DNA of 64,000 nucleotides from a virus: the IMG/VR virus record IMGVR_UViG_3300043331_002222. One strand, given 5' to 3'. The position numbers and the translations under genes are program-made. This document shows, piece after piece, positions 31,009-64,000 of this stretch. The notes under the pieces are model-generated. The model did not search any database. It was not told the origin of the DNA and worked only from the letters and a program-made list of their open reading frames with translations. The stretch's first letter is position 1. Each line of letters starts with the position of its first letter.

Positions 31009-32067
31009 TCACGGTGTCCTCCTTACCCGCTTCTCGTACTCGATAGCCCAGGACCACGCTTCGGCCCACTGCCAGGCCTGGTCCTCGAGCACGAACTGCT
31101 CTTTGACCGCGGCCCGGCCGGCTTCGCTCTGCTCGATCCTGAACCGCTCGTCACGCAGCAGCTTCTTGAGGCAGCCCTCCCACTGCTTGGGCTTCTCGGC
31201 GAGCAGCCCGACCCCGCTCTCGCGCTGCAGCAGCGTGTACTCCTCTCGGGGGCTCATCACGACCGGCACGCCACAGGCCATCGCCTCGAGGGGCTTGAGC
31301 CAGCTCTTCGCCGCGTTGAACGAGGTGTCAGCGAGCGGGGCGATCGTCACCCCGCTCTTCGCGACCTCTACCGGCCAGTAGTCGAACTCGACGGTGCCGA
31401 CGGCGGGGACGGACCGACCGTCCAGGCCGAGCGCATCGTCCACGCCGACGCCCGAGCCGATGACCTGGAACTCGGCTCCATCCCGGACCAGACTCCAGAT
31501 AGAAGGACCGAGGACCGACAGGTCGTCCGGGTGAGAGTGCAGGCTGCCGCACCACGTGATCCGCTTCCCGTCACGGTGGGGCACCTCGAGGAAGTGCTTG
31601 GGCACGTAGTTGTGTAGCACCCGGCCCCGCCCGTGCGGTGCGTAGCGCTGCAGAAGTTGCTCGGTCGAGCAGGTGACTAAGGTCGCGTCACGGCACGCCT
31701 GCTGGGCGGCTAGCCAGTTGTGCGCTGTGTTCGACTTCGGGTGCATAGCCGCGAACGCAGGGTTGCGGGGGTGGATGCGGGCTAGGTCGTCGTCCATGTC
31801 GATGATGACCGCCACGCCCTGGGCTCGGATGAGTGGGACCGCCTGCGAGATCAACGTGAACGTGGGCCGTTGGATCACGACCGCCGTAGCGTCACTGGGG
31901 ACGATCGCCCGGCGCATCCGGCCGTGCTGGTCGACGAAACCACCGAACATCGAGCGGTCACCGGGCACGACCACCTCGATCTCGATCCCCTCGGCCGCTC
32001 GGCCTGGCCACAGTAGCCGGTAGTGGCCACAGGCCCACATGTCCGATGGGTAGACGTAGACCTTCAT
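31009..32067 (-). CDS. GT-B (family 4-like) glycosyltransferase
   Basis: CGHYRLLWP, IIDMDDDL, VTCSTEQL, IAPLADTSFNAAKSWLKPLEAMACGVPVVMS. Confidence 0.88.
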   Translation of the reverse strand: MKVYVYPSDMWACGHYRLLWPGRAAEGIEIEVVVPGDRSMFGGFVDQHGRMRRAIVPSDATAVVIQRPTFTLISQAVPLIRAQGVAVIIDMDDDLARIHPRNPAFAAMHPKSNTAHNWLAAQQACRDATLVTCSTEQLLQRYAPHGRGRVLHNYVPKHFLEVPHRDGKRITWCGSLHSHPDDLSVLGPSIWSLVRDGAEFQVIGSGVGVDDALGLDGRSVPAVGTVEFDYWPVEVAKSGVTIAPLADTSFNAAKSWLKPLEAMACGVPVVMSPREEYTLLQRESGVGLLAEKPKQWEGCLKKLLRDERFRIEQSEAGRAAVKEQFVLEDQAWQWAEAWSWAIEYEKRVRRTP

Positions 32068-32342
32068 CCCGTGTCGAACTTCCCGATGATCCAGAACTGG
32101 TGCGGTGGGGTGAACACTACCGCGACCTGGTCACCCACCGCCAAGGCCGTGCCCGTGGTGACGTCGTGAGCCGGGACCGTGTCGAGCTCGCCGTCGAGCA
32201 GCACCTCGTGGATGCCGGTCTCTGGCGTGTCTAGCTCCTGCAAGCTGGCGCCCAGGAACTTCGCCTGCACGATCTGCGCCTGGACCCGCTCGAGGACGAT
32301 CTCGACGAGGGCCTCGAGGAACTGCTGGTCGATCGAGCTCAC
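32064..32342 (-). CDS. Small minor tail protein
   Basis: Position; LAVGDQVAVVF...WIIG. Confidence 0.6.
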   Translation of the reverse strand: MSSIDQQFLEALVEIVLERVQAQIVQAKFLGASLQELDTPETGIHEVLLDGELDTVPAHDVTTGTALAVGDQVAVVFTPPHQFWIIGKFDTG

Positions 32343-46082: not shown

Positions 46083-47837
46083 CTAGACCAGCGCCACCCC
46101 GTCCTGGTTGGCCGCGCCGGTGGTACCGTCGACGGTGAAGTCGACCGTGACCACGCGGGAGAGGTGACCGATGCGCGCCACGAGGTGGCACTCTTCGGTC
46201 CACGCTGCGGTGTGGTCGTTGCGGGCGTTGAGCACGCTGTCTCGGACGACGCCGAGGTCCAGGTCCAGCCCGTTGCCGAGGACGAACGTGCCCGCGGCGT
46301 AGATGAGGAACTGGACGGCGGCCGGCCACGCGGTCCGGGCGGTGGCCTGGCCGGGGAAGTCGCCGCTGCCGACCTGCCAGTCGCTGACGAACTGGACCCT
46401 GACCAGCCGCTGGTCGAACCAGCTCATGATCTGAGCGTCGCTGACCGCGAGCAGGTCCTGCCCAGTCCGCTTGGCGATGTCGCTGCGGATGGCCTCCTTC
46501 GACCACCGCGGCAGGACGACCTCGAGGATGTCGTCGTCGCACATGCGGAACCGCTCCCGGTAGTCCGCGGCCTGCAGGCCGACGGCTCCGAGGAGCCCGG
46601 TGGTGATCGGGCTGTCGGTGCCGGTCACCGTGACGGCGGTCGACTGCGCCACCATGTCGGCGATGTGCCGCTGGTTCATCACGTGCCGGTGTGCGCTCAT
46701 CGTCAACCTGATGTGGTTCTGGATGAGCTCCGGGAACGCCGACTCGGTGAGGTTGCCGGCCGTCACGCAGATGCCGTGGCAGTCGAGGCGCTCCTCGTTG
46801 AAGGTCGGGCAGTCGGGCCGTGCGCACGGCTTGGTGGGACCAGCACCGCCGGTCGCAGCGGCGATGTCGTCGGTCTCGGTCCACAGCCACACGTCGTCGA
46901 GGACGTCGCTGATCGACGGGCTGGTCGGGAACCGGATGCCGCCCCGGGTCACGCCCACGGTCGGCACGTCGACGATGCCATCGTCGCAGGCGATGTTGAA
47001 GAAGTCGTAGATGATGGTGCTCGGTGCGCACCACCCGCCGGCCGCCACGAGGTGCTCGGGGTCGGCGCTGCGCTTGACGACGTCCCAGATCTGCTCGGGT
47101 GTGGCGTCTCGGTCGAGGACGATGTCGAACTCGCGCTTGACCGTCGCCACCGTCGCCTGGCCACTGGGGTTGCCCAGGGTCTTGGCCCGGCGGTGCACGG
47201 CGTCGGCGAGCTTCTCGAAGTCATCGAGCTGACGGCCCGCCGCGTAGCTGGGGACGTCCGGTGCGACCAGGACCATCGCGTCCTGTCGTCCACCCAGCGA
47301 CGGGTCCGGCGCCCGGCGCCGCACCTCGCTGAGCGGCACGTTCAGGCGCCGCCTGGTCGGGATGGACAGGGTGCCACCCTGGTCGCCGGCGGGCTGGGCC
47401 TCTGGGGCCAGCGTCACCGTGGTCTGGGTGGCTGCCTCGACCGGTTCGGCCGGGGGCTCCGCGGACTCCGTGGGCTCGGCCGGGGGTTCGCCACCCTCGC
47501 CGCCCTCGTCTCCCTCACTGCCCTCGGACTGCGCGGTGACCCCGACGCGGGTGGCCAGTTGGTCGAGCTCGGCCGCCATGTCCTGGCGCTCGCTCTCGCG
47601 GCGCTCCTTCTCGGCGGTGACCCGGTCCATCGCCAGCGCGATGGTGCGGGCCTCCTCGAGCGCCTCGCGGGTCAGGTCCCCGCTGCGCAGTGCGTTGAAC
47701 GACTCGAGCAGCGTGCTGCCGAGGGTCTCGAGCTCGTCGGCCGGCATCTGCGTGAGGTCCTCGGGGATCTCGACGCTCTCGCCTTCGACGTGCTCGTCGA
47801 ACGTGAAGATCCAGCTGAGACGCCGGCTCTCTTGCAT
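46083..47837 (-). CDS. Major capsid (hexamer) protein with N-terminal scaffold-like domain
   Basis: AAGGWCAPSTIIYD, VTRGGIRF, PELI, NDHTAAWTEE; AAGGGAG RBS before ATG 47837. Confidence 0.9.
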   Translation of the reverse strand: MQESRRLSWIFTFDEHVEGESVEIPEDLTQMPADELETLGSTLLESFNALRSGDLTREALEEARTIALAMDRVTAEKERRESERQDMAAELDQLATRVGVTAQSEGSEGDEGGEGGEPPAEPTESAEPPAEPVEAATQTTVTLAPEAQPAGDQGGTLSIPTRRRLNVPLSEVRRRAPDPSLGGRQDAMVLVAPDVPSYAAGRQLDDFEKLADAVHRRAKTLGNPSGQATVATVKREFDIVLDRDATPEQIWDVVKRSADPEHLVAAGGWCAPSTIIYDFFNIACDDGIVDVPTVGVTRGGIRFPTSPSISDVLDDVWLWTETDDIAAATGGAGPTKPCARPDCPTFNEERLDCHGICVTAGNLTESAFPELIQNHIRLTMSAHRHVMNQRHIADMVAQSTAVTVTGTDSPITTGLLGAVGLQAADYRERFRMCDDDILEVVLPRWSKEAIRSDIAKRTGQDLLAVSDAQIMSWFDQRLVRVQFVSDWQVGSGDFPGQATARTAWPAAVQFLIYAAGTFVLGNGLDLDLGVVRDSVLNARNDHTAAWTEECHLVARIGHLSRVVTVDFTVDGTTGAANQDGVALV

Positions 47838-47971
47838 GACGGGCTCCCTTGGTACTGAAGCGACCTGTTGGTTCTCCGTTGGAGGGGACCAGGTCTCGCT
47901 CCGTACCCTCTGGCCCTGGGCCGTCGGGCTGGCGGCTTCGGTGGCCGCCCGCGCCATGCGCGATCGCGGGC

Positions 47972-48002
47972 AGTGTACCACGAGGTGTGGGGGTGCTGTC
48001 CA
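47972..48002 (-). promoter_or_regulatory. Capsid-operon promoter TGGACA-N19-TACACT (extended -10 TGG)
   Basis: Family match with a longer spacer; divergent from the 48013 promoter. Confidence 0.55.
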
Positions 48003-48012
48003 GCACGCTCAC

Positions 48013-48041
48013 TGGACACGGCCTCGATCGTAAGGTAAGGT
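48013..48041 (+). promoter_or_regulatory. Promoter TGGACA-N17-TAAGGT, leaderless for 48049
   Basis: Exact match; ATG 7 nt downstream. Confidence 0.75.
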
Positions 48042-48048
48042 CTCGGCC

Positions 48049-48336
48049 ATGGAAGAGACGAAGATCCTCAAGCCCAACCCCATCAGCACCACCCAGTTCA
48101 CCTGGGACAAGGCGTCCAAGACCTTCATCGGCGAGATCTCCAGCACCCACGGCTTCGGCCGGGTGTACAACGACTCCGCCGACGAGGGGCTCACCCTCGT
48201 CTCACAGTGGACCGGTCGTGAGATGGTGTTCGTGGTGGAGCACACCGAGCGTGACCAGGACGGTGACGTTCAGTTCTGGCTGCTCAAGCCGGTCGATCGC
48301 TCCCTGTGGGCGACTGTCAAGCTGTTCAACGACTAG
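48049..48336 (+). CDS. Hypothetical protein in an opposite-strand cassette
   Basis: Own promoter and terminator; globular sequence, RVYNDSADEG...KLFND. Confidence 0.75.
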   Translation: MEETKILKPNPISTTQFTWDKASKTFIGEISSTHGFGRVYNDSADEGLTLVSQWTGREMVFVVEHTERDQDGDVQFWLLKPVDRSLWATVKLFND

Positions 48337-48341
48337 CTAGG

Positions 48342-48364
48342 AGCCCCCGGAGACCCCGGGGGCT
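48342..48364 (+). terminator. Intrinsic terminator
   Basis: AGCCCCCGG-agacc-CCGGGGGCT followed by TCTTCG. Confidence 0.7.
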
Positions 48365-48384
48365 TCTTCGTGCCCAGAAACTTC

Positions 48385-48414
48385 TGGACGACGCTTGGCC
48401 TTGGTAGGTAAGGT
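48385..48414 (+). promoter_or_regulatory. Promoter TGGACG-N18-TAAGGT with no downstream protein gene
   Basis: Family match. Confidence 0.65.
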
Positions 48415-48420
48415 GTCGGT

Positions 48421-48705
48421 CCGGTAGAGGACCCACCTCACGGCCGTGAGGGGGGTTGTGAGTGACAGAACGAGGGCTCCCTCTCTTCTCGGGGAACCCG
48501 ACCCATTGTGACGGTACGAAACCAGCCGTGACCAGGGCTCTCCCACCAACGGCAAGTGCTGAGGTGGTGATCCCGAACTCGAGGCGAGCTACCTCGGGGG
48601 CCGTGGCGGAGGTTGCGCTCCCGTACTGAGCTCGTCGGAACGGCCTGCAACGCCCAGAGAGGCCGACGTTGGGGGTAGGCAGTCCCCCCTCACACCCTCT
48701 ACCAC
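48421..48705 (+). ncRNA. Candidate structured ncRNA (about 285 nt)
   Basis: 5' GGTAGAGG pairs with 3' CCTCTACC; at least six internal hairpins; own promoter. Confidence 0.5.
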
Positions 48706-49268
48706 CGTCCGGGCGCCCCCGAAGTGTTCTGCCCGTCGATGGTCCAGACCCACGTGACCTCGTCGACGTGGTGGAACTTGGCCCCGAGCCGGTTCATCTG
48801 CATCCAGAACTCCCAGTCGTCGCCGCTGAAGCCAGCGTTGATCGGCGGCGGGAAGTGGCACTGCCGAGCGAGCTCCCCTCGGACGAGTGCCGTGATCGGG
48901 AACGTGTGCGGTACGTTGGGGTCCCACTGCTTGCCACGGTTGCACGCGATCGGATCACCGCCACCAAGGCTGGGCGTGTACCACGGCCACACGATGTCGG
49001 CCTCGGTCGTCGCCTGTTCCCGCAGCAGGGTCTCGAGGTGGTGTGGGAGGAGCTGGTCATCGTCGTCAAGGAACGCGACCCACTCGCTCGTGGTCGCCAG
49101 CAGGGCACGGGTCCGGGTCGGCCCAGCGCCCTCCTTGTCATGGTCGACAGCGATCGAGACGTGCTCGGGCGGCACGGTCTGTGACCACACGCTGGGCAGG
49201 CACCGGTTGAGCAACGACTGGTTCCGTGGCGGGATCGAGGGGATGACTACCGCGATGCCGCTCGCCAC
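48699..49268 (-). CDS. GT-A (family 2) glycosyltransferase
   Basis: VVIPSIPPR, EGAGPTR, VAFLDDDD, DDWEFW; GGGAGG RBS before GTG 49268. Confidence 0.88.
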   Translation of the reverse strand: MASGIAVVIPSIPPRNQSLLNRCLPSVWSQTVPPEHVSIAVDHDKEGAGPTRTRALLATTSEWVAFLDDDDQLLPHHLETLLREQATTEADIVWPWYTPSLGGGDPIACNRGKQWDPNVPHTFPITALVRGELARQCHFPPPINAGFSGDDWEFWMQMNRLGAKFHHVDEVTWVWTIDGQNTSGAPGRW

Positions 49269-49885
49269 GACTGTCCTCCCACGCCGGCCCCGAGGTGAAG
49301 CCGCCAGGTCCGGTGTGGCACGTGCACGAACTTCGCGTGAATGTCGAGCAGCCGGTTGAGCAGTGCCCAGTCCTCGCACTGCCGGTACCGCTCGTACTCC
49401 TCGCTGTCGTGACTGGGGTAGCCACCTACGGCCTCGAGCATCGAGCGCCGGACGAGGATGGTGGCCGGGATGAACGCGTGCTGCCGCATGTGTCGGGCCT
49501 GCTCGGGGCCGAACGCGACTCCGAGGGGACTGCGCAGCATGCCGTTGACCGGACACGCGAGCTTCTCGTCGCTCGAGATGTTGCCCATCTCGTCGTAGAG
49601 CTCGAACCACGGGTAGACGACGTCGGCCTGCTGGCTGTACGCGGCCATGACGCACCGGGCGAGGTGGTCCTCGTTGAACTCGTCATCGTCATCGAGGAAG
49701 GCTACAAACTCGCTCGTAGCCCGCCGCCACGCCTTGTTGCGGGTCGGCCCCGCGCCCTCGCCGTCTCGGTCCACCTGCACGATCGTCTCGTCTGGTGGCC
49801 AGAGCTGGACCTCGACCGAGGCAAGCGCCCGCTCGAGCAGCGCCTTGCGTGGCGGGATGGTCGCGATGCAGACGGAGACGCTCAC
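49247..49885 (-). CDS. GT-A (family 2) glycosyltransferase
   Basis: VCIATIPPR, EGAGPTRN, VAFLDDDD, EDWALL. Confidence 0.88.
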   Translation of the reverse strand: MSVSVCIATIPPRKALLERALASVEVQLWPPDETIVQVDRDGEGAGPTRNKAWRRATSEFVAFLDDDDEFNEDHLARCVMAAYSQQADVVYPWFELYDEMGNISSDEKLACPVNGMLRSPLGVAFGPEQARHMRQHAFIPATILVRRSMLEAVGGYPSHDSEEYERYRQCEDWALLNRLLDIHAKFVHVPHRTWRLHLGAGVGGQSWRAASR

Positions 49886-51063
49886 AGGACCGTCGGCACG
49901 GGGAGGGGAACGATCCACTTCTCGACCCCGAGGTCGCGCTTCAGGACATCCGCAGCGTAGTTCCAGGCGAGCAAGAGCACGGTCTGCTCGTGCCACGCCC
50001 CGGCGTACGGTGGCCGGATCTCGATTCCGGTGTTCGGGATGAAGCGGCCCTGCTTCGCCAGGGTCGTGTCCGTGACATGGCTGACCTCGGCATCGTCCAG
50101 TCCGCAGAAGTGCAGGAGAGTCGTGGCCTTCGCTGGCGCGCCGAACCCCATGACGTCGTGGTGGGACAACAGGTTGAGCAACCGGTCCCGGACCCGCTCG
50201 GCCCGGCCCTGGAAGCCCCGGTACGCGACCAGGTCCCGCAGCCACGCCTCTTGCGCGAGCAGGTAGTCCCGCTGGTGGCAGGACACCCGTCGCTTCACGG
50301 CCTGGACCCGGATACTGCCGCCCTGCCGGTCGGTCTGCTCCACGGCCGCGACGTACAGTCCGTGCTGCTCGAGCGCTCTGCTAAGGCTGGTCAGGCTGAA
50401 GAAGTTCCGGTGCTCGTGGTAGACGAGGTCGAATGCGTTGTTGAGCAGCAGGTCCGGGAGGTACTGGACCTCGACGTAGACAACCCCGTCGTCCGCCACG
50501 AGCAGGGCCGCGCCAGCGAGCACGTCACTAACGTCCTCGACGTGAGCGAGCACGTGGTTCAGCACCACCACGCCGGGTCGCTGCACGAACCCGTCGGCGA
50601 GCTCGATGGCGAGCGCTCGGCTGAACGGCTCGTCGACGACGTTCAGCCCCCACTCCTGTGCCCGCTTGACCGGGCCGGTCGCCGGGTCCACCCCGAGGGC
50701 TGGCCCGTTCCCGGTGAAGTGCCGAAGGAAGTCCCCGTCGTTGCAACCGACTTCGACCAGGCCCTGCTGGACTAGGGCACCGTGCCGTGACAGGACCCGC
50801 ATCGCGTACTGGCCGTGGTAGTTCGACAAGGGCAGGCTGGCCGAGCTGTAGAAGCTGTAGCCGGTCCCGAACAGCTCGCCGGCCGGGACGACCTCGAGCA
50901 GCTGGGCCAGCCAGCAGCCGGTGCACACCGCGACCTGTAGCGGGTAGAGCGGCTGGCGCTCGTTCGCAGTCTCGGTGTACGCGTCAGCGATGGGGCTGTA
51001 GCCCAAGTCGAGGAAGAGCTCGAGGCCGTTGTAGCCGCAGGCAGAGCAGGTGGTGCGGATCAC
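49882..51063 (-). CDS. NDP-sugar C-methyltransferase (TylCIII/TcaB9-type)
   Basis: N-terminal CSACG...C..C zinc site, LDLGYSPIAD, VEVGCNDG, NHVLAHV, YHEHRNFFS, GFGAPAKA, LLAWNY. Confidence 0.9.
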   Translation of the reverse strand: MIRTTCSACGYNGLELFLDLGYSPIADAYTETANERQPLYPLQVAVCTGCWLAQLLEVVPAGELFGTGYSFYSSASLPLSNYHGQYAMRVLSRHGALVQQGLVEVGCNDGDFLRHFTGNGPALGVDPATGPVKRAQEWGLNVVDEPFSRALAIELADGFVQRPGVVVLNHVLAHVEDVSDVLAGAALLVADDGVVYVEVQYLPDLLLNNAFDLVYHEHRNFFSLTSLSRALEQHGLYVAAVEQTDRQGGSIRVQAVKRRVSCHQRDYLLAQEAWLRDLVAYRGFQGRAERVRDRLLNLLSHHDVMGFGAPAKATTLLHFCGLDDAEVSHVTDTTLAKQGRFIPNTGIEIRPPYAGAWHEQTVLLLAWNYAADVLKRDLGVEKWIVPLPVPTVL

Positions 51064-51587
51064 GAGGTAAACCTACCAGCGTAAGCGCGCACCACGTACT
51101 GCCAGCGCTGGTTCGGGTCGACGATCGGCCAACCTCCCTCGATGCGGTCGAGGCCCAGGTCCCAGACCCGCGGCCAGCCCGCCTCGAGCAGGAGCTTCTC
51201 CACGAGCGGGCCGCTGGTCTCCCACTGGTGGACGTCCCCGGCCCACCGGCCCGCTCCGTGCTTGATCGCCTCAAGGGTACCCCAGCTCCAGTCGAATGTC
51301 CCATCAGCGATCATCTGCTCGGCGAGCGGGACGTCCGGTCCGACCGCGACGAGGACGCAGCCCTCGCTGTGCGCGCACCAGAGCAGCTGCTCGCAGAGCC
51401 CGAAGCAGTCGTCCCGGGTGAGGTGCTCGAACAGGTGCCCAGCGTAGACGTGAGTGACCGCGCTCCGCCAGTGCTCGGGGAGCGGCCCGGTCAGATCGAC
51501 CCGCTCGTCCACTCGGTGGGGCGTCTGGAAGTCGACGTTCACCCAACCGGGCTGGTAGCGGTCAGCGCAGCCGAGGTTCAGCCGCAC
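51060..51587 (-). CDS. Small class I SAM-dependent methyltransferase-like protein
   Basis: RLNLGCA...GWVNVD, YAGHLFEHL. Confidence 0.8.
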   Translation of the reverse strand: MRLNLGCADRYQPGWVNVDFQTPHRVDERVDLTGPLPEHWRSAVTHVYAGHLFEHLTRDDCFGLCEQLLWCAHSEGCVLVAVGPDVPLAEQMIADGTFDWSWGTLEAIKHGAGRWAGDVHQWETSGPLVEKLLLEAGWPRVWDLGLDRIEGGWPIVDPNQRWQYVVRAYAGRFTS

Positions 51588-52207
51588 GGTTCCTCGGCGT
51601 AGTACTCACCGGGCACGAACCGGAGCCGGGTGTGCTTGGTCGGCGGTCCCTCAACGGTGGGGAGCAGTCGCACGGGCAACACTCGGAAGTCGAAGCTGAC
51701 CCTGGTCCGCCCCGTGTCGTTGAGCTTGTTGCCGTGCAACCGCTTCGCAGCCGAGAACTCTGCGATCTGCCCTGGCCACGCGTTGACACACTGGAGCTCG
51801 CCGTCGTCGTCTTGCACCCACAGGCTGGCTGACCCGTGAGCCGCGGTCAGCGGCAGCCACATGGTCACCTCGTCGAGGGGGTGGTGGTACTGGGCGTCGG
51901 TGTGCAGCTCGCCGACCGCGGTGTTGCCCGGGAGCTGGACCCGGAACGTGGGCACCCGTTGGTAGTAGAACGGCTCCTCGACCCGCTCGGCTACGACCTC
52001 CCGCACGAACGCATCGTAGACCCGCTGCCACGTGTGGAAGTCGCCGTAGAACAGTGGGTGCCAGGGTGACTGCTGGTCGGTCTGCCAGGTCCGCTTGGGT
52101 AGGTCGGCTTCGAGTCCGTAGAGGCTGGTGACGCCGAGCGACAGCCGGACCAGCTCTGGGAACGGGTACTCCGTCAAGTCGTAGTCGAACAGCTCCCAGG
52201 GGGTCAC
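51578..52207 (-). CDS. StrG-like 2OG-Fe(II)/DSBH-fold protein
   Basis: FDYDLTEYPF, YQRVPTFRVQLPGN, HTD..H (HxD...H), LHGNKLNDTGRTRVSFDFR. Confidence 0.75.
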   Translation of the reverse strand: MTPWELFDYDLTEYPFPELVRLSLGVTSLYGLEADLPKRTWQTDQQSPWHPLFYGDFHTWQRVYDAFVREVVAERVEEPFYYQRVPTFRVQLPGNTAVGELHTDAQYHHPLDEVTMWLPLTAAHGSASLWVQDDDGELQCVNAWPGQIAEFSAAKRLHGNKLNDTGRTRVSFDFRVLPVRLLPTVEGPPTKHTRLRFVPGEYYAEEPCG

Positions 52208-52821
52208 GCCAGGCTCCACTTCTGACGGTACAGCTCGGCGGCCTCGCGGCACTTAGCGGCGCTCTCTTCGCTCGAGTACCCCTCGAGGTTGTGGTGCCAC
52301 GTGTCGACGTCCACGACCACTGCCCGCTTGCCGGCTGCCCGGACCTGCATGCCGATCTCGTCGTACCCGTGGAACCAGGTGAACCGCGGGTCGAAGCGCA
52401 GGTTCTGCACTAGCCAGGGTGACAGCACCATGATGCTGCCCTCGAGGAGGGTGACGTCGCCCTCTCGCTGACCGAAGTCGATCAGCCGCCGGTCGGTGCG
52501 CTGGTGACCGACCGGGCTGTGGTTCCACCAGTAGATCGACTCGCCACCACCACCCGCGACCCCGACCATAGCCACGTCTGGGTTCCGTAGTGGAGCGAGG
52601 AGCTTGGCTTCACCGTCCAGGTCGAGTAGCTCGAGGTCGTCGTGGACCAGCACGAGGGCCTCGAGGTCAGCGTGGTACTGGACCGTGTCCAGGACCTCGT
52701 TGTAGGCCCGCACGATCCCGGGGTACCCGTGCTTCGTGAACGTGGGCCGGCCCCCGGTCCACGGTGCGACGTACTGGTTGAACTTCTCCCAGCTCCCGAC
52801 GCAGCAGCCGTAGACGATCAC
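52204..52821 (-). CDS. StrF-like glycosyltransferase (Glyco_tranf_2_5-type)
   Basis: IVRAYN, LVHDDLE, VGVAGG, LLEG..M, FDPRF..FHGYD. Confidence 0.75.
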   Translation of the reverse strand: MIVYGCCVGSWEKFNQYVAPWTGGRPTFTKHGYPGIVRAYNEVLDTVQYHADLEALVLVHDDLELLDLDGEAKLLAPLRNPDVAMVGVAGGGGESIYWWNHSPVGHQRTDRRLIDFGQREGDVTLLEGSIMVLSPWLVQNLRFDPRFTWFHGYDEIGMQVRAAGKRAVVVDVDTWHHNLEGYSSEESAAKCREAAELYRQKWSLA

Positions 52822-53465
52822 CGGTGACCCCACTTGGCCTGGAACGTCCGGCCGTCCAGCCCGGCCTGGTGGGCCAGGTCCGGCCGCGCAGTGTACTCTC
52901 CGACCCGGAGGTTCGGTGCCGGTGCCCCGGCTACGATCACCGTGCCGCAGCGCTGGCGGGCCTGCCAGTCCACGTCCGTGTCGCAGTACCACCAGTGGAG
53001 TGACTCGTCAGCCCGGAGTCCCTGCTCGCCGGGGAGCATGAACGCCCACGGGCACATGCGATCTCCGCCGTTCGACAGCTCCCGGAGCAGGTACGGACTC
53101 GAGATGGCCTCGTAGCTGTGGGCCGAGGCCGCGCTAGCACCCCACTCTCGCAGCCCGGTTGCGACCCGGTCGTACCAGTCGGGTGGGACTACGACGTCGT
53201 CGCAGAGGAGCGCGACCTCCCACGTGCCCTTCTCGGGCTCGCTCGCCGAGATCGCTTCGAGCTGCGTGTTCCACAGTCGAGCGAGGTTGGGTGGCTGGTC
53301 CGGGACGTTCAGGATCACGACTCCGTCGGGCCACTCACCGTCGACCGGCGGATCACTGGCGTTGTCCACGACCGTGACCTGGTCAACCTGCGGAAGGACC
53401 GCAGCCACGCACTGCCTGAGCAGCTCGAGGCGGTTGTGCGTGAGCACGACCGCGTGCCTAGCCAC
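52818..53465 (-). CDS. GT-A (family 2) glycosyltransferase
   Basis: VVLTHNR, VVDNAS, LLCDDV, WWYCDTD. Confidence 0.85.
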   Translation of the reverse strand: MARHAVVLTHNRLELLRQCVAAVLPQVDQVTVVDNASDPPVDGEWPDGVVILNVPDQPPNLARLWNTQLEAISASEPEKGTWEVALLCDDVVVPPDWYDRVATGLREWGASAASAHSYEAISSPYLLRELSNGGDRMCPWAFMLPGEQGLRADESLHWWYCDTDVDWQARQRCGTVIVAGAPAPNLRVGEYTARPDLAHQAGLDGRTFQAKWGHR

Positions 53466-53468
53466 GGC

Positions 53469-53669
53469 TCAAGCGGGGTTGTGCGTCGTCAGCGTCCCGT
53501 TGACCTGACGCTTGAACACCACCGCGTCGATGTAGCGGTCGAACGTGGTCCTCGAGCCGTCTGGCGAGATCACCGTGAACTGGGGCGGTGTGTGCCGTCC
53601 GCTCGCGATCGCAGCCGCCACGTCCGGGCTGACCGTCTGCCGTGCCTTGCCGCAGCTTGTGCACCCCAT
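53469..53669 (-). CDS. Small head-module protein
   Basis: MGCTSCG N-terminus; coupled to the protease gene. Confidence 0.6.
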   Translation of the reverse strand: MGCTSCGKARQTVSPDVAAAIASGRHTPPQFTVISPDGSRTTFDRYIDAVVFKRQVNGTLTTHNPA

Positions 53670-55708
53670 CAGCGCTTGACCACCTTCCTGACCCGGAGGG
53701 TCCCGTGTCCATCTCCTCGCTTCTGCAGCTCGCGGTAGCGCTCCGCTCGCTCCTCGGTCACGACCCCAGCGGCGGTCAGCGCGAGCATGTCGTCGTTGTC
53801 CATCCGCGCCCGCATCCGCGGCACGGGGAACCCAGGGACGTTGACCGCGAGGATGGCGACGAGCTGCATCCGGCCACCGATTCGGCGCCAGTCACCGCTG
53901 AGCGAGGCACTGCGCAGCTCGCGGAGCCGTCGCTCGCTCAGCCCGGGTCGGACCGAGCCAGCGACCCAGATGCCGTACTGGTCCTCGCCGACCACGACGT
54001 CCGCCGCAGCGAACCCGGTCTGGTCGTAGTGGGCCGCTGCTGGCGCGGCTCCGTACCGCGCTGCGGCGTGACCGGTTCCCAACGTGACGTGACCGACTCC
54101 GACGAGCTTGCCCTCGCGGGTCTTCAGCTCACCCTTGAGGAAGTAGGAGTAGGTGGAACCGCGCGGCGGAGTGACGCAGCGGTCGGCGAACGTGGTGTGG
54201 CACGTGCCCCACAAGCACAGGTGACCGTAGGCCTTGCCACCGTCGTCGATCGTCCACGGAGTCGGCCCGGGCAGCTGGGGGTTCTTGATCCAGTTCCCCG
54301 GCGGGTAGAGCGGCGCGATCACCTCGTCGTTCCCACCGACCCGGACCGCCGAGGCGACCAGGACGTCCTCGAGGGCTGCGAGCTCGGGCGGGGTCTTGCC
54401 CCCGGCCCGGAGGTGTCCGGCCAGGTGGCTGTGGACCGCGGACCGGTCACCACCGGGGATCGACGAGCCGCCCCTGGCCCCGTTCAGCGCGGCGATCCCG
54501 GCCGAGCATGCGGTCATGTTGGCCGGCCCGCCCGGGCTGTTGTGGTGGGGGAACTTCAGGTCGGCCTTCACGACCTTGCCGTCTTCGACGGCGCCGTCGG
54601 CCATCCACGCGTACATGCCCCTCGCGGTCGCTACCGGCATCGGCGAGGGGAGGCGCGACTGGACCGAGCCCGCGTCCCAGCTACCCTCAGCGGTACCGGT
54701 CTTGTGACCAGAGATCGCTCCGAACGTCTCCACGGGGTGGGAGAGAGCTGCCACGACCACGTCCTCCTCTTCGAACTCCTCCACCGTACCGAGGTGGATG
54801 CGCGCCTCGACGAACGCCGGCAGGGCCACCATGGTCGCACCCCGGAGCCGGCCTCGGTGGAACACCACCTTGTCGGGCGGCGGGCCGAACAGCATCAGGA
54901 TGCCGTCCTCACCTTCGTCCGCGGTCTCCTCTGCGGGTGTGTCCGGGAACACGAGCTCGACGTCACTGTCCTTGACGCTGTCGACGTCGACGCTGATCCC
55001 ACCGGCGAGCTCGTTGCGCAGGTCTTCGGTGACCGGTGCGTCCCGCTTGATGACGCCCCACCCCCGGATGAGATTGCCGTCTCGCTCGATGCGCTGGATA
55101 CGCCCGACCACGATCGAGTGGCCGTGTCGCTCTTCGGACTGCTCCTGCCAGCTGAGCGGAACTACGACCTCCTCGAGGTCGGGCCACTCGAGGCTGCCCG
55201 GGGCGAACTCGCGCCCGTCCCCGGTCTCCGTCCCCTCAACGGCCAGGACCCCGTGCCACGGCTCGAGGGGACCCTCGAGGGCCATCTCCTCGTCGTTGTC
55301 CATGCACGTACCATCCGGCATGCGGTGCTGGTTGGGACCGCACTCCTCGCGCTCGTCGTCCTGGTAGGACTGCCCGCGCCGGTTGCGCCGAAGGCGCTTA
55401 TCCCGGTCCGTGCCCTGGTTGGGCCTCCCCCCGAACCCACCGTTATCGGTGGCGTTGGTGAAGCTGTTAGTGACGGCCATGGTTGCGACCTCCTCGGCCT
55501 CGGGCCGATTCACGACCAGTTGTACCAGTTCCTCCGCCAGCTCGGCCAGCCCCTGGTCCGCCTCCGAAGCGTACAGGGCCGCGAGCTGGTCCTCAGCGGA
55601 GCTCCGCGTGGCGTGGCAGAACTCGGCCTCGGTGTCACCCTTCTTCACGATGCCAAACGGCCGCGAGGCCGGACAACCGGGTGCGTTCGCTACGATGTCC
55701 CAGGGCAC
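53669..55708 (-). CDS. Capsid maturation protease / prohead protein
   Basis: WHGVLAVEGTETGDGR, HGHSIVVGRI, GISVDVD, GATMVALPAF; C-terminal GHLCLWGTCH...AGSVRP...LSGDWR. Confidence 0.78.
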   Translation of the reverse strand: MPWDIVANAPGCPASRPFGIVKKGDTEAEFCHATRSSAEDQLAALYASEADQGLAELAEELVQLVVNRPEAEEVATMAVTNSFTNATDNGGFGGRPNQGTDRDKRLRRNRRGQSYQDDEREECGPNQHRMPDGTCMDNDEEMALEGPLEPWHGVLAVEGTETGDGREFAPGSLEWPDLEEVVVPLSWQEQSEERHGHSIVVGRIQRIERDGNLIRGWGVIKRDAPVTEDLRNELAGGISVDVDSVKDSDVELVFPDTPAEETADEGEDGILMLFGPPPDKVVFHRGRLRGATMVALPAFVEARIHLGTVEEFEEEDVVVAALSHPVETFGAISGHKTGTAEGSWDAGSVQSRLPSPMPVATARGMYAWMADGAVEDGKVVKADLKFPHHNSPGGPANMTACSAGIAALNGARGGSSIPGGDRSAVHSHLAGHLRAGGKTPPELAALEDVLVASAVRVGGNDEVIAPLYPPGNWIKNPQLPGPTPWTIDDGGKAYGHLCLWGTCHTTFADRCVTPPRGSTYSYFLKGELKTREGKLVGVGHVTLGTGHAAARYGAAPAAAHYDQTGFAAADVVVGEDQYGIWVAGSVRPGLSERRLRELRSASLSGDWRRIGGRMQLVAILAVNVPGFPVPRMRARMDNDDMLALTAAGVVTEERAERYRELQKRGDGHGTLRVRKVVKR

Positions 55709-55711
55709 GCG

Positions 55712-58700
55712 CTACCCCTGTCCTGTCAGGGGGTTGCCCGCGGTCAGACTGACCGGCGGCAGCCCACGGTCGACCGCGAAGTCGTACGCCAGGGCGAGTA
55801 CGTCGAGGATCGGAGCGTCGATCTGCTCCACCGTCATCTCGACGTCGCCCAGGTCCGAGTCCGCGAGGTCATGGCCGACGGTCGCCGCCCACCGGTGGTG
55901 ACCGTCGACGACGTAGTCGTCGTTCGACGTGAAGATGCTCCGGTTCGGGTCGAGCCCCCCTCGCGCCACGACGTCCTCGATAGCAGCGACCTTGGTCCCA
56001 TTGAGCTCCATCTGGGTCGCCTTGAGGTGGCTGGCAGGCCGCTTGACCCGCTTCATCTCGATCCCCATGCTGGCCAGGTGCTCCCGGAACGCCGGTGCCA
56101 GGTCCACCTCGCCACGGCTGTCGCGAGTCAGGTTCTGGTCGGCCCACGAGCCGGGCTCGGGCACTCCACCGAGCTGCGGCATCTGAGCCCGAGTCAGTCC
56201 CTTGTGCTCAGCGCAGAACAAGTTGGTGCCCTTGACCGACACGTCGCACAGGTCGTAGGTCTCGGCCTTCTCGCCCGCGTCCACGGCCGCTTGCGCCCGC
56301 TTGGCCAGCTCATCGAGCAGGGTCGCGACCCGGTCGGGCTGGTCTAGCTCGACCTTCTTGCCCTGCGCCAGTAGGTCGATGGCCTCCTGGACGTCACTGG
56401 TGTGAATCGGGTCCTGGTCACTGAGCATCGTCCGGGCGAGCCCGTCAGCCGAGAGGTTCTTGAACACCTCGGCCGAACCCTCCGAGCGCCGACCGCGCCC
56501 ACCAGCGTGACTCTGCTGGTCGTGCTTGCCACGCTGGTGAAAGGCCAGCCCGAACTCCTGAGCGAGGTCCTGGTCGTGAAACCCGCTCTTGTCGAAGCGC
56601 CGAGCGAACTCGTACCCGAGGTCGAGCTCGTCGATCAGGTACTCGATTCCCTCGACCGTGCCCTCGTCTACCTCGAGGTCGGTCCGCTGCTCTTCGCTCA
56701 GGACAAACGTCTCGAGGTCGTCGAGCTCGGCCTTGACGAGGTTGCCCTCGCTGTCCCACGGGTTCGGGATCAGGGTCTCGGGCAGCAGGACCGCCTTACC
56801 GGTTCCGGGGCTGCCCGGCGCACCAGCCCAGACCGCGGTGTTGACCCCGTGGTACTCCGAGGCCATGGCCTGCCGGCCCGCTCCCTCGTACATCGAGGAG
56901 TGCTCGAGGTAGGCCTGGTACTCTCCGTGCCGGTCGAAGCCACCGCCCACACCGGCGTGACCGAACACGTCATGCACGGCCCGGAACCGGTCGTACTCGG
57001 GCGTGGTCATCAGCGTGTGGTTGCCACCTAGTCCCGACTGGAGCGTGATGTGCCGGTTGTTGCGCAGGTCCGCGGCCTGGCTGGCCGCGTCCGGGTAGGG
57101 GTCCCCGGCGCTGAACGGGCTGAAGTCGACCGAGATCCCCATGCCGCCCTCGCTCTCGGGCCGGGTCATGAAGTCGAACATGCGCTCGTTCTGCCGTTTG
57201 AACTCGTCGTACGCGGCCTGGACCCGGGGATCGTCAGAGCCGTCGGCCATCCCCTCCCACTTCTCGGCCACGAGGTCGGCCTTGGCGAGCGGCGCTGGTA
57301 CCTCGCTGATGTCAACGTCGGGGTCGGGCAGTCCCTCCTGGTCCCGGTAGCGCTGAGCACCCTCGACGATGTAGTCGACCTCCGGATACTGCTCGCGCAC
57401 CTCAAACAGCAGCGCGTGCTTGACGTCCGGCGGTAGCCCGTTGACGAGGCGGCCGTGCCAGTCGAACAGGGCCTCGCCCTCCATACGGGGGTGAGCCTCG
57501 AGGTACGCGTCGACGCTGCCGACGCCCGGGATGCTGAGGTCGCTGCTGCGCCGCCGGCCACCCGCGTGTGACTGCTGATCGTGCTTCCCGGGCAGGTGGA
57601 ACGTGGAGGGTGCCGCTAGCCCGCCGGCGGCGGCGACCGCGACGAGCTGCTCCTGCTCGTCCGAGAAGACCCACAGGACTGTGCACCGGCAGTTGATGAC
57701 CTCTTCAGCCGGCCCGTCCGGGTCACCCGGGAACTTCAGCCGACCGTCACCGACCTCGAACGGGTCGAGCAGCCCGACCTGCTGGCCGTTGGCCCGCCGG
57801 TGCGTGTCACGGGTCCGACTGTCGTTGGTGGCCAGCCACTCCTTGCCAACGGGCGCCTCTTCCCCGAGCAGCTGGACCTGCGCGAACGCCCCGGCGTTGT
57901 ATGCGCCCACGACCTCGGTCCGCGCGATGGTCTGGGCGCGAACTCGGGTTGATGCGAGGACCTCGCGGACCCGCCGGGCAAGCTGGTCGATGTCCTCGCC
58001 AAGGCCGATCCCGTCGAGCAGCTGTAGGCGGGTGCGCCGCCACAGGTCGTCCCCGACACCGACGAGACGGTTCCGAGCCTGCATCAGATGTACCTCGGCG
58101 ATGGTGCTGGCGAGGTCGAAGCTGACCGGGAACTGCGAGATGTAGTCGATCAAGACCGTAAGGGTGTCCCGCGCACCGTCATGCATGAACACCCCGATCT
58201 GGGGCATCAGAGTCGAGATGAGCTCGACTCGCCAGGCCTGCTCGATCGCGGTCAGATCGTCGACGCTCACTGCAGCCGGGTCGACCGAGGCGAGGATCGA
58301 CTGTCCCAGCGGGAAGTCATAGGTGTTGTCACCGTGCGCGAAGCGCAGCCGGTCGAACATGATCGGCCCTGTCCGGTCGAGCGCCTCGCTGACGTGTCGG
58401 TCGGTCGGGTTGTAGGCCAAGGTGACGTGTGGCACCCAGGGCTGGTGCTGCTCGGGCAGCTGCCAGTCCTCGGCTCCGGCCGCGACCTGCGAGTCCTGTA
58501 GCGCCTTCATCGCCAGACGCCGGACCTCGGGCAGCCACGCACCGCCGATCCCGAGCACCAAGGCCGGGTCGTCACCGTTGGGGTTGAACCGGTTGACCGA
58601 GAACGCGTTGCCCTGGTACAGGGTCAGGTCCTCGGCCTGAGCGTCTAACGTGTCGCGCAGCTCGCTAACGAGCTCATCGGGCATCTCGGCGGCCTCACCG

Positions 58701-61554: not shown

Positions 61555-61903
61555 GCACGCTCTCCAAGGTCAGCTCGTCGAGGGCCTGCTGGTTCGTCAG
61601 GTGATCGTGCAGCATGACGGCGAAGCCGCTCACCAGTGCTCCACTGACCCAGACCAGGGCTGGGAGCGCCAGGTCACTCGACCACCAGGTCAAGAGGGTG
61701 ACCAGCCCGCTCACGTAGAACCCGGCGCACCAGGGACACGTGACCAGGTAGGCTCCCGTCGAACCCTCCCCGGCCCGTCGGACTACCCAGTCGCGTACTC
61801 GAGCCACGGGTGGCAGCGTCGCCCTGGTGACCACGTACGTCGCGTAGGCCGCTGTCAGCCAGACGGCGAGGAACGTGGCGAACACGGGGCTGATCATAAT
61901 CAC
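61538..61903 (-). CDS. DUF1360-like membrane protein
   Basis: TM helices with LVTCPWCAGFYVS. Confidence 0.75.
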   Translation of the reverse strand: MIMISPVFATFLAVWLTAAYATYVVTRATLPPVARVRDWVVRRAGEGSTGAYLVTCPWCAGFYVSGLVTLLTWWSSDLALPALVWVSGALVSGFAVMLHDHLTNQQALDELTLESVRDQAK

Positions 61904-63920: not shown

Positions 63921-64000
63921 GCTGAAGGCTAAGCTCCGAGAACTCCGGTGCCGGCGTTGCCGGAACCAGGCACTCAGCTGCTCGATCGCCCTGGGAGAGT
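63880..64000 (+). CDS. Partial leaderless ORF (MDEMTKM..., runs off the window)
   Basis: Open to the end of the window; MDEM start shared with other leaderless genes. Confidence 0.5.
   Translation, partial: MDEMTKMSGHQRRKLKAKLRELRCRRCRNQALSCSIALGE

What the first reader, a model, noticed from the sequence alone, without database searches (positions are those of the whole stretch)
48699..53465. Seven-gene sugar synthesis and transfer cluster inserted between prohead protease and major capsid genes
Seen: four GT-A glycosyltransferases, an NDP-sugar C-methyltransferase, a second methyltransferase and a DSBH oxygenase-like gene, all translationally coupled and co-oriented with head genes. Established: actinophage virion glycosylation by 2-3 glycosyltransferases is known; sugar C-methyltransferases are typical of antibiotic and O-antigen pathways. 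Inference: the phage builds its own branched, methylated glycan for the capsid. No nucleotidyltransferase or dehydratase is present, so it would draw on host NDP-4-keto-sugar intermediates. DNA as acceptor is less likely but not excluded.
Basis: partly seen in the sequence, partly recalled or inferred. Interest (0 to 1): 0.8.

Follow-up and report, generated by a model that had tools for sequence, protein, structure and literature searches.

The report
Phage branched-sugar glycosylation gene cassette
A soil actinophage carries, inside its head-gene operon, seven coupled genes (plus an eighth 17 kb away) that tailor a methyl-branched sugar and transfer sugars, most likely to coat its own particle; particle glycosylation is known from three mycobacteriophages but not with this chemistry, and the acceptor here is unproven.

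Summary
On the minus strand, 48699-53465 carries seven overlapping genes:
- two clear GT2 glycosyltransferases (g1, g2);
- a weaker GT2-like protein (g7);
- a StrF-like GT-A protein (g6, PF13712);
- a StrG-like 2OG/Fe(II) dioxygenase (g5);
- a small class-I SAM methyltransferase (g4);
- a TylC3/TcaB9-type NDP-sugar 3-C-methyltransferase with its zinc and catalytic residues intact (g3).

They lie between the capsid maturation protease and the major capsid gene. They are not flush with the capsid gene: 861 bp with an opposite-strand ORF intervene.

It travels with this cassette in 20 of 48 related viral contigs.

The C-methyltransferase cassette occurs in at least 48 uncultured viral contigs. 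Wherever the flanks resolve, it sits inside the virion operon, at three different sites. About 70 more distant relatives of this phage have protease and capsid genes adjacent, so the cassette is an insertion.

Twenty-four cassettes carry their own 4,6-dehydratase-family gene and three more carry another sugar-nucleotide SDR. This window has none, so host supply of the keto-sugar is plausible.

The cassette does not track the hydroxymethyl-pyrimidine DNA pathway (present in 4 of 9 near-complete genomes). That argues against DNA as acceptor.

Virion glycosylation is the best reading (about 0.6) but is unproven. This scan has already reported the general theme on other DNA. This cassette differs in the branched-sugar and StrF/StrG chemistry.

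The parts
52818..53465 (-). g7, GT2-like GT-A glycosyltransferase, 215 aa
   Evidence: Pfam Glycos_transf_2 is sub-threshold (E 5e-4). Atlas neighbours are GT2 clusters, mostly viral (score 0.99). In a 32-sequence family alignment the DNAS-type motif (D34 N35) and the D89 D90 pair are invariant. 39% identical to Streptomyces phage Zuko gp108, annotated 'glycosyltransferase'.
52204..52821 (-). g6, StrF-like GT-A protein (PF13712, Glyco_tranf_2_5), 205 aa
   Evidence: Pfam 24.7 bits against a cut-off of 27. Atlas neighbours carry PF13712 in 60-88% of members. The family profile hits PDB 2qgi/2nxv at E 6e-4. H60-D61-D62 and H176-H177 are invariant. GTGA overlap with g7. Present in 41 of 48 related cassettes.
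51578..52207 (-). g5, StrG-family 2OG/Fe(II) dioxygenase, 209 aa
   Evidence: AlphaFold model pLDDT 96. Foldseek match to StrG of S. griseus: TM 0.87/0.92, 36% identity, E 1e-23. PtlH TM 0.63. H102-x-D104, H158 and R169-x-S171 are invariant in 44 homologues. Weak NCBIfam TIGR04324 'sporadic carbohydrate cluster 2OG-Fe(II) oxygenase' hit. Present in only 3 of 48 related cassettes.
51060..51587 (-). g4, small class-I SAM-dependent methyltransferase, 175 aa
   Evidence: No Pfam hit. AlphaFold model pLDDT 92.7. Foldseek matches O-, N- and C-methyltransferases at TM 0.5-0.6. The family motif is MKLNLGCGDRY...W.NVD...YAGHLLEHL; the window copy reads GCA where the other 19 read GCG or GSG. Present in 19 of 48 cassettes.
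49882..51063 (-). g3, NDP-hexose 3-C-methyltransferase (TylC3/TcaB9/KijD1/MtmC family), 393 aa
   Evidence: Pfam Methyltransf_13 (3e-17), _23 (3e-19) and _14 (2e-24). PDB 5t64, 4rv9 and 3ndi at E 2e-53 to 7e-52 over the full length. The alignment keeps four Cys (C6, C9, C47, C50) and the YxxxSS, H and Y-x-E-H positions of TcaB9. It belongs to a phage-associated clade (46 viral contigs plus 3 MAG contigs) set apart from 50 bacterial homologues by a branch with SH-aLRT 99.
49247..49885 (-). g2, GT2 glycosyltransferase, 212 aa
   Evidence: Pfam Glycos_transf_2 2.5e-12 and Glyco_tranf_2_2 7e-9. phrog_14775 1.6e-27. FLDDDDEF motif. GTGA overlap with g3.
48699..49268 (-). g1, GT2 glycosyltransferase, 189 aa
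   Evidence: Pfam Glycos_transf_2 6.6e-10. phrog_14775 6e-37. FLDDDD motif. 22-nt overlap with g2. 40% identical to Zuko gp106.
31009..32067 (-). Distal GT-B (GT4-like) glycosyltransferase, 352 aa; a probable eighth member of the system
   Evidence: Pfam Glyco_trans_1_4 4e-9 and Glyco_trans_1_2 2e-6. phrog_7162 9e-29. Homologues lie within or directly beside the C-methyltransferase cassette in 20 of 48 viral loci. In the window it sits where class-C cassettes sit, just after the distal tail gene at 32339-33451.
53669..55708 (-). Upstream flank: capsid maturation protease-like gene, 679 aa
   Evidence: phrog_18402 and phrog_859. tblastn hits are annotated 'capsid maturation protease' in Arthrobacter and Gordonia phages.
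46083..47837 (-). Downstream flank: major capsid protein; probable start at 47837, 584 aa
   Evidence: phrog_777 1e-137. Relatives align from residue about 68-77 of the long ORF, and the ATG at 47837 has a purine-rich stretch upstream.
53469..53669 (-). 66-aa ORF between the protease and g7; function unknown
   Evidence: 57% identical to an ORF at the same position in L003. No family match.

Best explanation
This is a phage-encoded glycosylation system expressed with the virion genes. It most likely decorates virion proteins (major capsid and/or tail proteins) with an oligosaccharide that contains a 3-C-methyl-branched 6-deoxyhexose.

Proposed steps:
1. The host RmlA/RmlB-type pathway supplies an NDP-4-keto-6-deoxyhexose (inferred).
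2. g3 methylates C-3 with SAM. The family and its active-site residues are shown; the substrate is inferred.
3. The 4-keto group is reduced, either by g3 itself as in the bifunctional MtmC, or by a host reductase (inferred).
4. The StrF-like g6 and StrG-like oxygenase g5 tailor a sugar nucleotide or the growing glycan (inferred).
5. g4 O-methylates a sugar hydroxyl (the fold is shown; the role is inferred by analogy with the Corndog O-methyltransferase).
6. g7, g2, g1 and the distal GT-B enzyme, with g6 if it is a true transferase, add sugars one after another to the acceptor (inferred).

The seven genes are translated as a coupled unit within the late head operon.
For: Enzyme identities.

Coupling: four GTGA overlaps plus 10-nt and 22-nt overlaps.

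Context: the C-methyltransferase cassette occurs in 48 IMG/VR loci and is co-oriented with virion genes wherever the flanks resolve.
- Protease|cassette|capsid gene in the window, L003 and L013.
- Capsid gene|cassette|head-tail adaptor in at least 24 loci of a lineage with unrelated head genes (phrog_12 portal, phrog_80 protease, phrog_10 capsid).
- Distal tail genes|cassette|GT-B in 13 loci.

Insertion: about 70 relatives with 40-55% capsid identity have protease and capsid genes adjacent and no cassette.

Pathway logic: 24 of 48 cassettes carry a 4,6-dehydratase-family SDR (PF16363, E 1e-51 to 1e-58) next to g3, and 3 more carry another SDR.

Precedent: Corndog has an O-methyltransferase plus three glycosyltransferases (gp35-38) just upstream of its major head gene gp41. 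These enzymes are reported to modify capsid and tail tube proteins (PMC11600133 and PMC12363180, both citing Freeman et al. 2023).

Against DNA as acceptor: a homologue of the window's dCMP-hydroxymethylase-like gene is present in 4 and absent in 5 of 9 cassette-bearing genomes that are at least 90% complete.
Against: No acceptor was identified. Capsid and tail-tube C-termini do not differ in any clear way between cassette-bearing relatives and those without a cassette. No Ser/Thr tag stands out on a virion protein.

The window's enzymes show no BLAST similarity to Corndog gp35-38, so the link is by analogy, not homology.

Gene position is not proof of a target. I recall that Che8's glycosylation genes lie outside the structural block; this was not checked here.

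No ketoreductase, dehydratase or nucleotidyltransferase lies in the window, so the sugar product is not defined.

g6 and g7 rest on sub-threshold Pfam scores. The window's g4 has Ala at a nearly invariant Gly of the SAM motif.

The phage also has a hydroxymethyl-pyrimidine pathway, so a DNA target is not formally excluded.
Confidence: 0.6

Rival explanations
1. The cassette glycosylates the phage DNA, for example by adding a tailored sugar to 5-hydroxymethyl-pyrimidines made by the phage's thymidylate-synthase-like enzyme. This would protect the genome from host restriction.
For: The window encodes a dCMP-hydroxymethylase-like gene (14959-15816) and other DNA-modification genes (earlier notes e1-5360941 and e1-5360936). 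Four cassette-bearing complete genomes also carry that homologue. From general knowledge, GT-A-fold enzymes can act on DNA bases (base J glucosyltransferase).
Against: Five of nine cassette-bearing genomes that are at least 90% complete lack any homologue of the hydroxymethylase. One of the five has terminal repeats and is estimated 100% complete. The closest complete relatives (G006, G007) have the hydroxymethylase but no C-methyltransferase. The cassette always lies in the late virion operon and never with the replication and nucleotide genes, which here are on the other strand. In this phage the hydroxymethyl group already has candidate downstream enzymes.
Confidence: 0.08
2. The enzymes act on a host target and not on the virion. 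Candidates are a cell-wall polysaccharide, a lipid-linked intermediate or a small molecule. The purpose would be to alter the cell surface late in infection (receptor masking, exclusion of other phages) or to drain host NDP-sugar pools.
For: All the families involved are best known from cell-envelope polysaccharide and antibiotic sugar pathways. GT4-type GT-B enzymes often use lipid-linked or membrane-associated acceptors (general knowledge). No virion acceptor motif was found.
Against: The genes are embedded in and co-oriented with virion genes in three independent arrangements. The genome looks lytic: it has its own polymerase, primase and helicase, and no integrase was seen among the genes scanned. 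Surface conversion would therefore bring little benefit. No flippase, polymerase or undecaprenyl-phosphate transferase accompanies the cassette in any locus examined.
Confidence: 0.15
3. The acceptor is a virion protein other than the capsid: a distal tail or receptor-binding protein. The glycan would tune adsorption and would not shield the head.
For: In 13 loci the cassette lies directly after homologues of the window's distal tail genes (33452-38572 and 32339-33451), and the window's GT-B gene is still at that site. From my memory of the Freeman et al. 2023 abstract, tail tube subunits are glycosylated in the known mycobacteriophage cases.
Against: In the window lineage and in at least 24 loci of an unrelated lineage the cassette abuts the major capsid gene. 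Nothing in the sequence separates the two targets, and both may be modified.
Confidence: 0.15

Closest known systems
Virion O-glycosylation operon of cluster O mycobacteriophage Corndog (gp35 O-methyltransferase, gp36-38 glycosyltransferases); also Che8 and Myrna (Freeman et al. 2023, cited in PMC11600133 and PMC12363180)
   Same: Tandem soluble methyltransferase and glycosyltransferase genes in an actinophage. They are co-oriented with the head genes and placed just upstream of the major capsid gene. The system is reported to modify capsid and tail tube subunits.
   Different: No detectable sequence similarity to gp35-38. This system has up to five transferases. It adds sugar-nucleotide tailoring enzymes that are not among the Corndog genes examined: a 3-C-methyltransferase and a StrF/StrG-like pair. 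One member lies 17 kb away. Glycosylation is not demonstrated here.
NDP-hexose 3-C-methyltransferases of antibiotic deoxysugar pathways: TcaB9 (PDB 3ndi), KijD1 (5t64), MtmC (4rv9), TylC3
   Same: Full-length three-domain architecture, a four-Cys zinc site and the catalytic Tyr/His/Tyr-x-Glu-His positions.
   Different: About 30-35% identity to the solved enzymes by inspection of the alignments, and at most 37% to bacterial genomic homologues. It belongs to a separate phage-associated clade. It is encoded in a virion operon with no aglycone pathway. The substrate and the nucleotide carrier are unknown.
StrF/StrG pair of the streptomycin biosynthesis cluster of Streptomyces griseus
   Same: g5 superposes on StrG at TM 0.87/0.92 with 36% identity. 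g6 belongs to the PF13712 family to which, as I recall, StrF belongs. The two genes are adjacent and overlap, as noted in earlier finding e1-5360946.
   Different: As far as I know, the biochemical roles of StrF and StrG are themselves unestablished. The StrF relation of g6 was not tested directly here. g5 is present in only 3 of 48 related cassettes, whereas g6 is in 41.
Mini-cassette of Streptomyces phages Zuko and KimJongPhill (gp106 glycosyltransferase, gp107 methyltransferase, gp108 glycosyltransferase)
   Same: g7 and g1 are 38-40% identical to gp108 and gp106. A small methyltransferase lies between the two.
   Different: The Zuko cassette has no C-methyltransferase, no StrF/StrG-like genes and no dehydratase, and it lies in the non-structural right arm. 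g4 is barely similar to gp107. No experimental data were found.

Membership tests
NDP-hexose 3-C-methyltransferase (TylC3/TcaB9/KijD1/MtmC) | Three-domain architecture: N-terminal zinc domain, class-I SAM domain, C-terminal C-methyltransferase domain | tested here: met
   Pfam PF08421 (residues 6-65), PF13489 (102-239) and PF08484 (247-388), all above cut-off.
NDP-hexose 3-C-methyltransferase (TylC3/TcaB9/KijD1/MtmC) | Four-cysteine zinc site, and catalytic residues equivalent to TcaB9 Tyr76, His181, Tyr222, Glu224 and His225 (numbering recalled from the literature) | tested here: met
   The HMMER alignments to 3ndi, 5t64 and 4rv9 keep C6, C9, C47 and C50; the Y in 'YSFYSSAS'; the H in 'LAHVED'; and 'VYHEH' against 'IYDEH'.
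NDP-hexose 3-C-methyltransferase (TylC3/TcaB9/KijD1/MtmC) | SAM-dependent methylation of the carbon next to the keto group of an NDP-4-keto sugar | not testable with these tools
   Indirect only: 24 of 48 related cassettes place a 4,6-dehydratase-family SDR beside the gene.
Actinophage virion O-glycosylation systems (Che8, Corndog, Myrna) | Phage-encoded soluble glycosyltransferases, with a methyltransferase, in tandem | tested here: met
Actinophage virion O-glycosylation systems (Che8, Corndog, Myrna) | Homology to the characterised enzymes (Corndog gp35-38) | tested here: not met
   tblastn of all eight window proteins against the Corndog region found nothing at E <= 0.01. Che8 and Myrna were not compared.
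Actinophage virion O-glycosylation systems (Che8, Corndog, Myrna) | Glycans attached to capsid and tail tube subunits (at their C-termini, as I recall from the Freeman et al. 2023 abstract) | not testable with these tools
   Comparison of C-terminal sequences was uninformative. No Ser/Thr tag was found.
StrG-family / PhyH-like 2OG-Fe(II) dioxygenase | Double-stranded beta-helix fold with the HxD...H iron triad and an RxS 2-oxoglutarate site | tested here: met
   Model pLDDT 96. StrG TM 0.87/0.92; PtlH TM 0.63. H102, D104, H158, R169 and S171 are invariant.
GT-A glycosyltransferases (GT2; PF13712 for g6) | Rossmann-like GT-A domain with an acidic DxD-type metal and nucleotide-sugar motif | tested here: met
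   Met for g1 and g2: Pfam above cut-off and DDDD motifs.
GT-A glycosyltransferases (GT2; PF13712 for g6) | The same feature, for g6 and g7 | tested here: inconclusive
   Pfam scores are below the gathering cut-offs. Supported by Atlas neighbours, weak PDB profile hits and invariant DD pairs. g7 also gives a weak NTP_transf_3 hit.
Phage DNA hydroxymethyl-base glycosyltransferase systems (T4 type) | Obligate co-occurrence with a hydroxymethyl-pyrimidine synthase | tested here: not met
   The hydroxymethylase homologue is present in 4 and absent in 5 of 9 cassette genomes that are at least 90% complete. Positive controls rang.

The most novel reading that the evidence does not exclude
Soil actinophages carry a mobile, modular 'glycan locus' that hops between fixed sites of the virion operon. 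Its content varies: with or without a dehydratase, an O-methyltransferase, a StrG-like or P4H-like oxygenase, and one to five transferases. On this reading, phage particles display antibiotic-type C-branched deoxysugars whose structure diversifies like bacterial O-antigens, and a phage-specific clade of sugar C-methyltransferases makes them. A more radical version is that the tailored sugar goes onto the hypermodified DNA and not onto protein.
Probability: 0.3. Interest if true: 0.8.

Novelty: new variant of a known kind. Interest (0 to 1): 0.6.

Why it matters
Virion glycosylation in phages has been demonstrated only in a few mycobacteriophages, with simple transferase-plus-O-methyltransferase operons.

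This cassette suggests that many uncultured soil actinophages (at least 48 contigs) go further. They appear to tailor the sugar nucleotide itself by C-methylation and oxygenase chemistry otherwise known from antibiotic and O-antigen pathways.

The cassette is exchanged between unrelated phage lineages, yet it always lands inside the virion operon.

If confirmed, three things follow:
- the known chemistry of virus particle surfaces would widen;
- a compact and abundant source of branched-sugar enzymes would become available;
- there would be a tractable system for asking what a glycan coat does for a phage in soil, where antibody evasion cannot be the selective force.

Tried and rejected
- Near-identical DNA in the isolated-phage collection: none.
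- No whole genome is held for the window, so genes beyond the 64 kb could not be checked.
- The Freeman et al. 2023 paper is not held. Its content is cited second-hand or from memory.
- Sequence searches of g4 and g5 against PDB: nothing. Folding was needed.
- g6 against Zuko gp109: unrelated. g4 against Zuko gp107: marginal.
- The profile search with the g6 family returned only unnamed metagenomic proteins and no StrF-named entry, so the StrF link of g6 stays untested.
- Literature searches for phage capsid glycosylation with a C-methyltransferase, and for StrF/StrG, found no paper.
- Capsid, pentamer-like and tail-tube C-termini do not separate cassette-bearing relatives from cassette-free ones.
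- Promoter and terminator scan of 47700-48900: nothing.
- The manA-like RNA match was not found next to the cassettes of relatives.
- No complex prediction was run. An enzyme-substrate pair with an unknown acceptor is a poor case for that tool.

Full report
**What is there**

The window is a high-GC (about 68%) lytic-looking actinophage. Replication and nucleotide genes lie on the plus strand at 9-30 kb: polymerase, helicase, exonuclease and a thymidylate-kinase-like gene. A primase lies on the minus strand at 72-2501.

A long late operon occupies the minus strand from 64 kb down to about 30 kb. In order it holds:
- large terminase (61926-63998) and portal (59758-61569);
- a MuF-type head protein (55712-59032);
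- a 679-aa capsid maturation protease-like gene (53669-55708);
- the cluster in question;
- the major capsid gene (phrog_777), a phrog_779 gene, the major tail protein and a head-tail adaptor;
- the tape measure gene and large distal tail genes.

The seven genes of the finding are real. Each has the coding GC pattern of the genome. Each has homologues at 40-77% identity in many viral contigs.

With starts refined against homologues, six consecutive junctions overlap: four GTGA, one of 10 nt and one of 22 nt. 'Translationally coupled' is therefore justified.

**What the genes are**

- g3 (49882-51063) is a full-length member of the NDP-hexose 3-C-methyltransferase family. All three Pfam domains are above cut-off. 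It matches KijD1, MtmC and TcaB9 at E about 1e-53. The four zinc cysteines and the Tyr/His/Tyr-x-Glu-His positions are conserved in the printed alignments.
- g1 and g2 are GT2 enzymes with DDDD motifs.
- g7 is GT2-like. Pfam is sub-threshold, its Atlas neighbours are GT2 clusters, and it is 39% identical to Zuko gp108.
- g6 is of the PF13712 GT-A type. It scores just under the Pfam cut-off, its Atlas neighbours carry PF13712, and its family profile hits PDB 2qgi.
- g4 has no Pfam hit. It folds confidently (pLDDT 92.7) as a minimal class-I SAM methyltransferase. Its family keeps an LNLGCGDRY...NVD...YAGHLLEHL pattern, but the window copy has Ala at one motif glycine.
- g5 folds (pLDDT 96) as a PhyH-like 2OG/Fe(II) dioxygenase with invariant HxD...H and RxS residues. 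Its best Swiss-Prot structural match by far is StrG of the streptomycin cluster: TM 0.87/0.92, 36% identity.

**Corrections and an added member**

The capsid gene most likely begins at 47837. That leaves 861 bp between g1 and the capsid gene. This interval holds a plus-strand 95-aa ORF (48049-48336) with a coding-like GC pattern, and about 360 nt of non-coding DNA. A 66-aa ORF (53469-53669), conserved in the relative L003, separates the protease from g7.

More important is the 352-aa gene at 31009-32067, at the far end of the tail block. It is a GT-B (GT4-like) glycosyltransferase. Its homologues lie inside or directly beside the C-methyltransferase cassette in 20 of 48 related loci. The system therefore probably has eight genes, split between two sites.

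**Comparative context**

Homologues of g3 at 49-61% identity occur in 48 IMG/VR contigs. They carry a recurring core: g7 in 37 loci, g6 in 41, g3 in all 48, and one or two g1/g2-like GT2 genes. Accessories are g4 (19 loci), GT-B (20), g5 (3), a 4,6-dehydratase-family SDR directly next to g3 (24, plus another SDR in 3), a P4H-like oxygenase (2), and two unknown families.

The cassette takes three positions, always co-oriented with virion genes:
- Class A: protease|cassette|capsid gene, in the window, L003 and L013.
- Class B: capsid gene|cassette|head-tail adaptor, in at least 24 loci whose portal, protease and capsid genes belong to other PHROG families than the window's.
- Class C: distal tail genes|cassette|GT-B, in 13 loci whose tail genes are related to the window's.

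About 70 more distant relatives (capsid 40-55% identical) have the protease and capsid genes adjacent with no cassette. The cassette is therefore an insertion.

The closest complete relatives (G006, G007; about 81 kb) carry a different sugar set upstream of the capsid gene: an SDR, a TOD1/MUCI70-like transferase, an unknown protein, and g2- and g1-like genes. They lack the C-methyltransferase. No protease homologue was detected in their loci, so whether that set occupies the same junction is unresolved.

In a quick maximum-likelihood tree, the phage-associated C-methyltransferases (46 viral contigs plus 3 MAG contigs) form one side of a branch with SH-aLRT 99. Fifty actinobacterial and other bacterial homologues, at most 37% identical, lie on the other side. 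Class-C sequences nest among class-B ones, which suggests the module moves between phage lineages.

Among isolated phages only distant C-methyltransferase homologues exist (under 32% identity, in large metagenomic phage records, gut phage fragments and a cyanophage). Only Zuko and KimJongPhill carry a reduced g7/methyltransferase/g1 set.

**Mechanism**

The enzymology of the TylC3/TcaB9 family (established knowledge) needs a keto group next to the carbon that is methylated. The frequent dehydratase neighbour in related cassettes fits an NDP-4-keto-6-deoxyhexose substrate.

The window has no SDR. Three SDR queries found nothing, and all ORFs of 280 aa or more are otherwise accounted for. One complete genome with the cassette (G013) also has no such gene. 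The caveat is that the window may be only about 80% of the genome.

No ketoreductase is evident. MtmC shows that this family can reduce as well as methylate, but that possibility was not tested here. The transferases would then build an oligosaccharide and g4 would O-methylate it.

**Which acceptor?**

Direct evidence is lacking. Several points favour virion proteins:
- The cassette is invariably embedded in the virion operon at three independent sites.
- It abuts the major capsid gene in two unrelated head-gene lineages.
- Corndog offers a precedent. Its O-methyltransferase plus three glycosyltransferases sit just upstream of the capsid gene and are reported to modify capsid and tail tube proteins (PMC11600133, PMC12363180).

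It was tested by co-occurrence. The hydroxymethylase homologue is found in 4 of 9 cassette-bearing genomes that are at least 90% complete and is absent from 5. Positive controls matched at E 1e-43 to 1e-67. The cassette is thus not tied to that DNA chemistry.

Two searches for an acceptor signature were uninformative: C-termini of capsid, pentamer-like and tail tube proteins, and Ser/Thr-rich tags. Because class C sits beside distal tail genes, a tail target is as open as a capsid target.

**Comparison, novelty and verdict**

The system works like the Corndog/Che8/Myrna virion glycosylation systems but is not homologous to the Corndog enzymes. It adds sugar-nucleotide tailoring that is not among the Corndog genes examined.

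This scan has repeatedly reported glycosyltransferase/methyltransferase islands in virion operons on other DNA, so the theme is not new. The C-branched sugar chemistry, the StrF/StrG-like pair, the split arrangement with a distal GT-B gene, and the movement of the module among three operon sites are what is new.

I class it as a new variant of a known kind, with interest 0.6. Confidence is about 0.6 that the acceptor is a virion protein and about 0.9 that the cassette makes and transfers a C-methylated sugar.

Noticed in passing
window 48436-48698 (+): Sub-threshold but full-length match to the Rfam manA RNA motif (RF01745): 21.1 bits against a gathering score of 55.2, E 0.0025-0.005. The conserved GAGUGAC.GAA and UGGGGGUA...UCCCCCCUC.CACC cores are kept. 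It lies antisense to the cassette and converges on the g1 stop codon. It was not found beside the cassettes of seven relatives.
   Followed up: partly
window 48049-48336 (+): A 95-aa ORF on the opposite strand, in the middle of the late operon between g1 and the capsid gene. GC pattern is coding-like (0.54/0.39/0.90). No family match and no homologue in any fetched locus.
   Followed up: partly
window 53469-53669 (-): A 66-aa ORF (MGCTSCGKARQ...) between the protease and g7. It is 57% identical to an ORF at the same place in L003. Function unknown.
   Followed up: no
L001:6963-7772 and L004 (about 6771-7559): Two related cassettes carry a prolyl-hydroxylase-type 2OG oxygenase (PF13640, E 1e-13) among the transferases. 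This hints that some cassettes hydroxylate a protein acceptor before glycosylation.
   Followed up: no
L014:11185-11862, L013:7878-8657, L003:4820-5476, and also L001, L004, L062 (same contig as L013), L063, L101: An unknown protein family of about 215-260 aa lies directly downstream of the C-methyltransferase in five of the 48 C-methyltransferase loci, and in the alternative cassettes of L063 and L101. It is absent from the window's cassette and has no Pfam match.
   Followed up: partly
L063:191-4916 (complete relative G006) and L101: The closest complete relatives carry a different sugar cassette upstream of the capsid gene: an SDR epimerase/reductase, a TOD1/MUCI70-like transferase, an unknown protein, and g2- and g1-like GT2 genes. 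There is no C-methyltransferase. This may be a variable glycan locus, but no protease homologue was detected there, so the junction is unresolved.
   Followed up: partly
L066-L141, tail tube C-termini: Many relatives without the cassette end their tail tube protein in a Thr/Pro-rich tail (for example NVTTTAPPTAACDPTTLAA). Many of these relatives also carry a g1-like GT2 gene upstream of the portal gene, which may be a simpler glycosylation system in the wider lineage.
   Followed up: no
window 51060-51587 (-), residue 8: The window's g4 has Ala where the other 19 family members have Gly, in the GxG SAM-binding motif (LNLGCA against LNLGCG or LNLGSG).
   Followed up: no
L017:2726-3970: In the class-B lineage the head protein after the portal carries an ADP-ribosyltransferase-like domain (phrog_3895 and phrog_802).
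   Followed up: no
L145-L147 (MAG contigs): C-methyltransferase copies 57% identical to g3 sit on contigs binned as Chloroflexota (38 kb) and Micromonosporaceae (2-3 kb). They are probably phage or prophage DNA. The Micromonosporaceae bins, and a Micromonospora g5 homologue (P0040), give a weak hint about the host.
   Followed up: no
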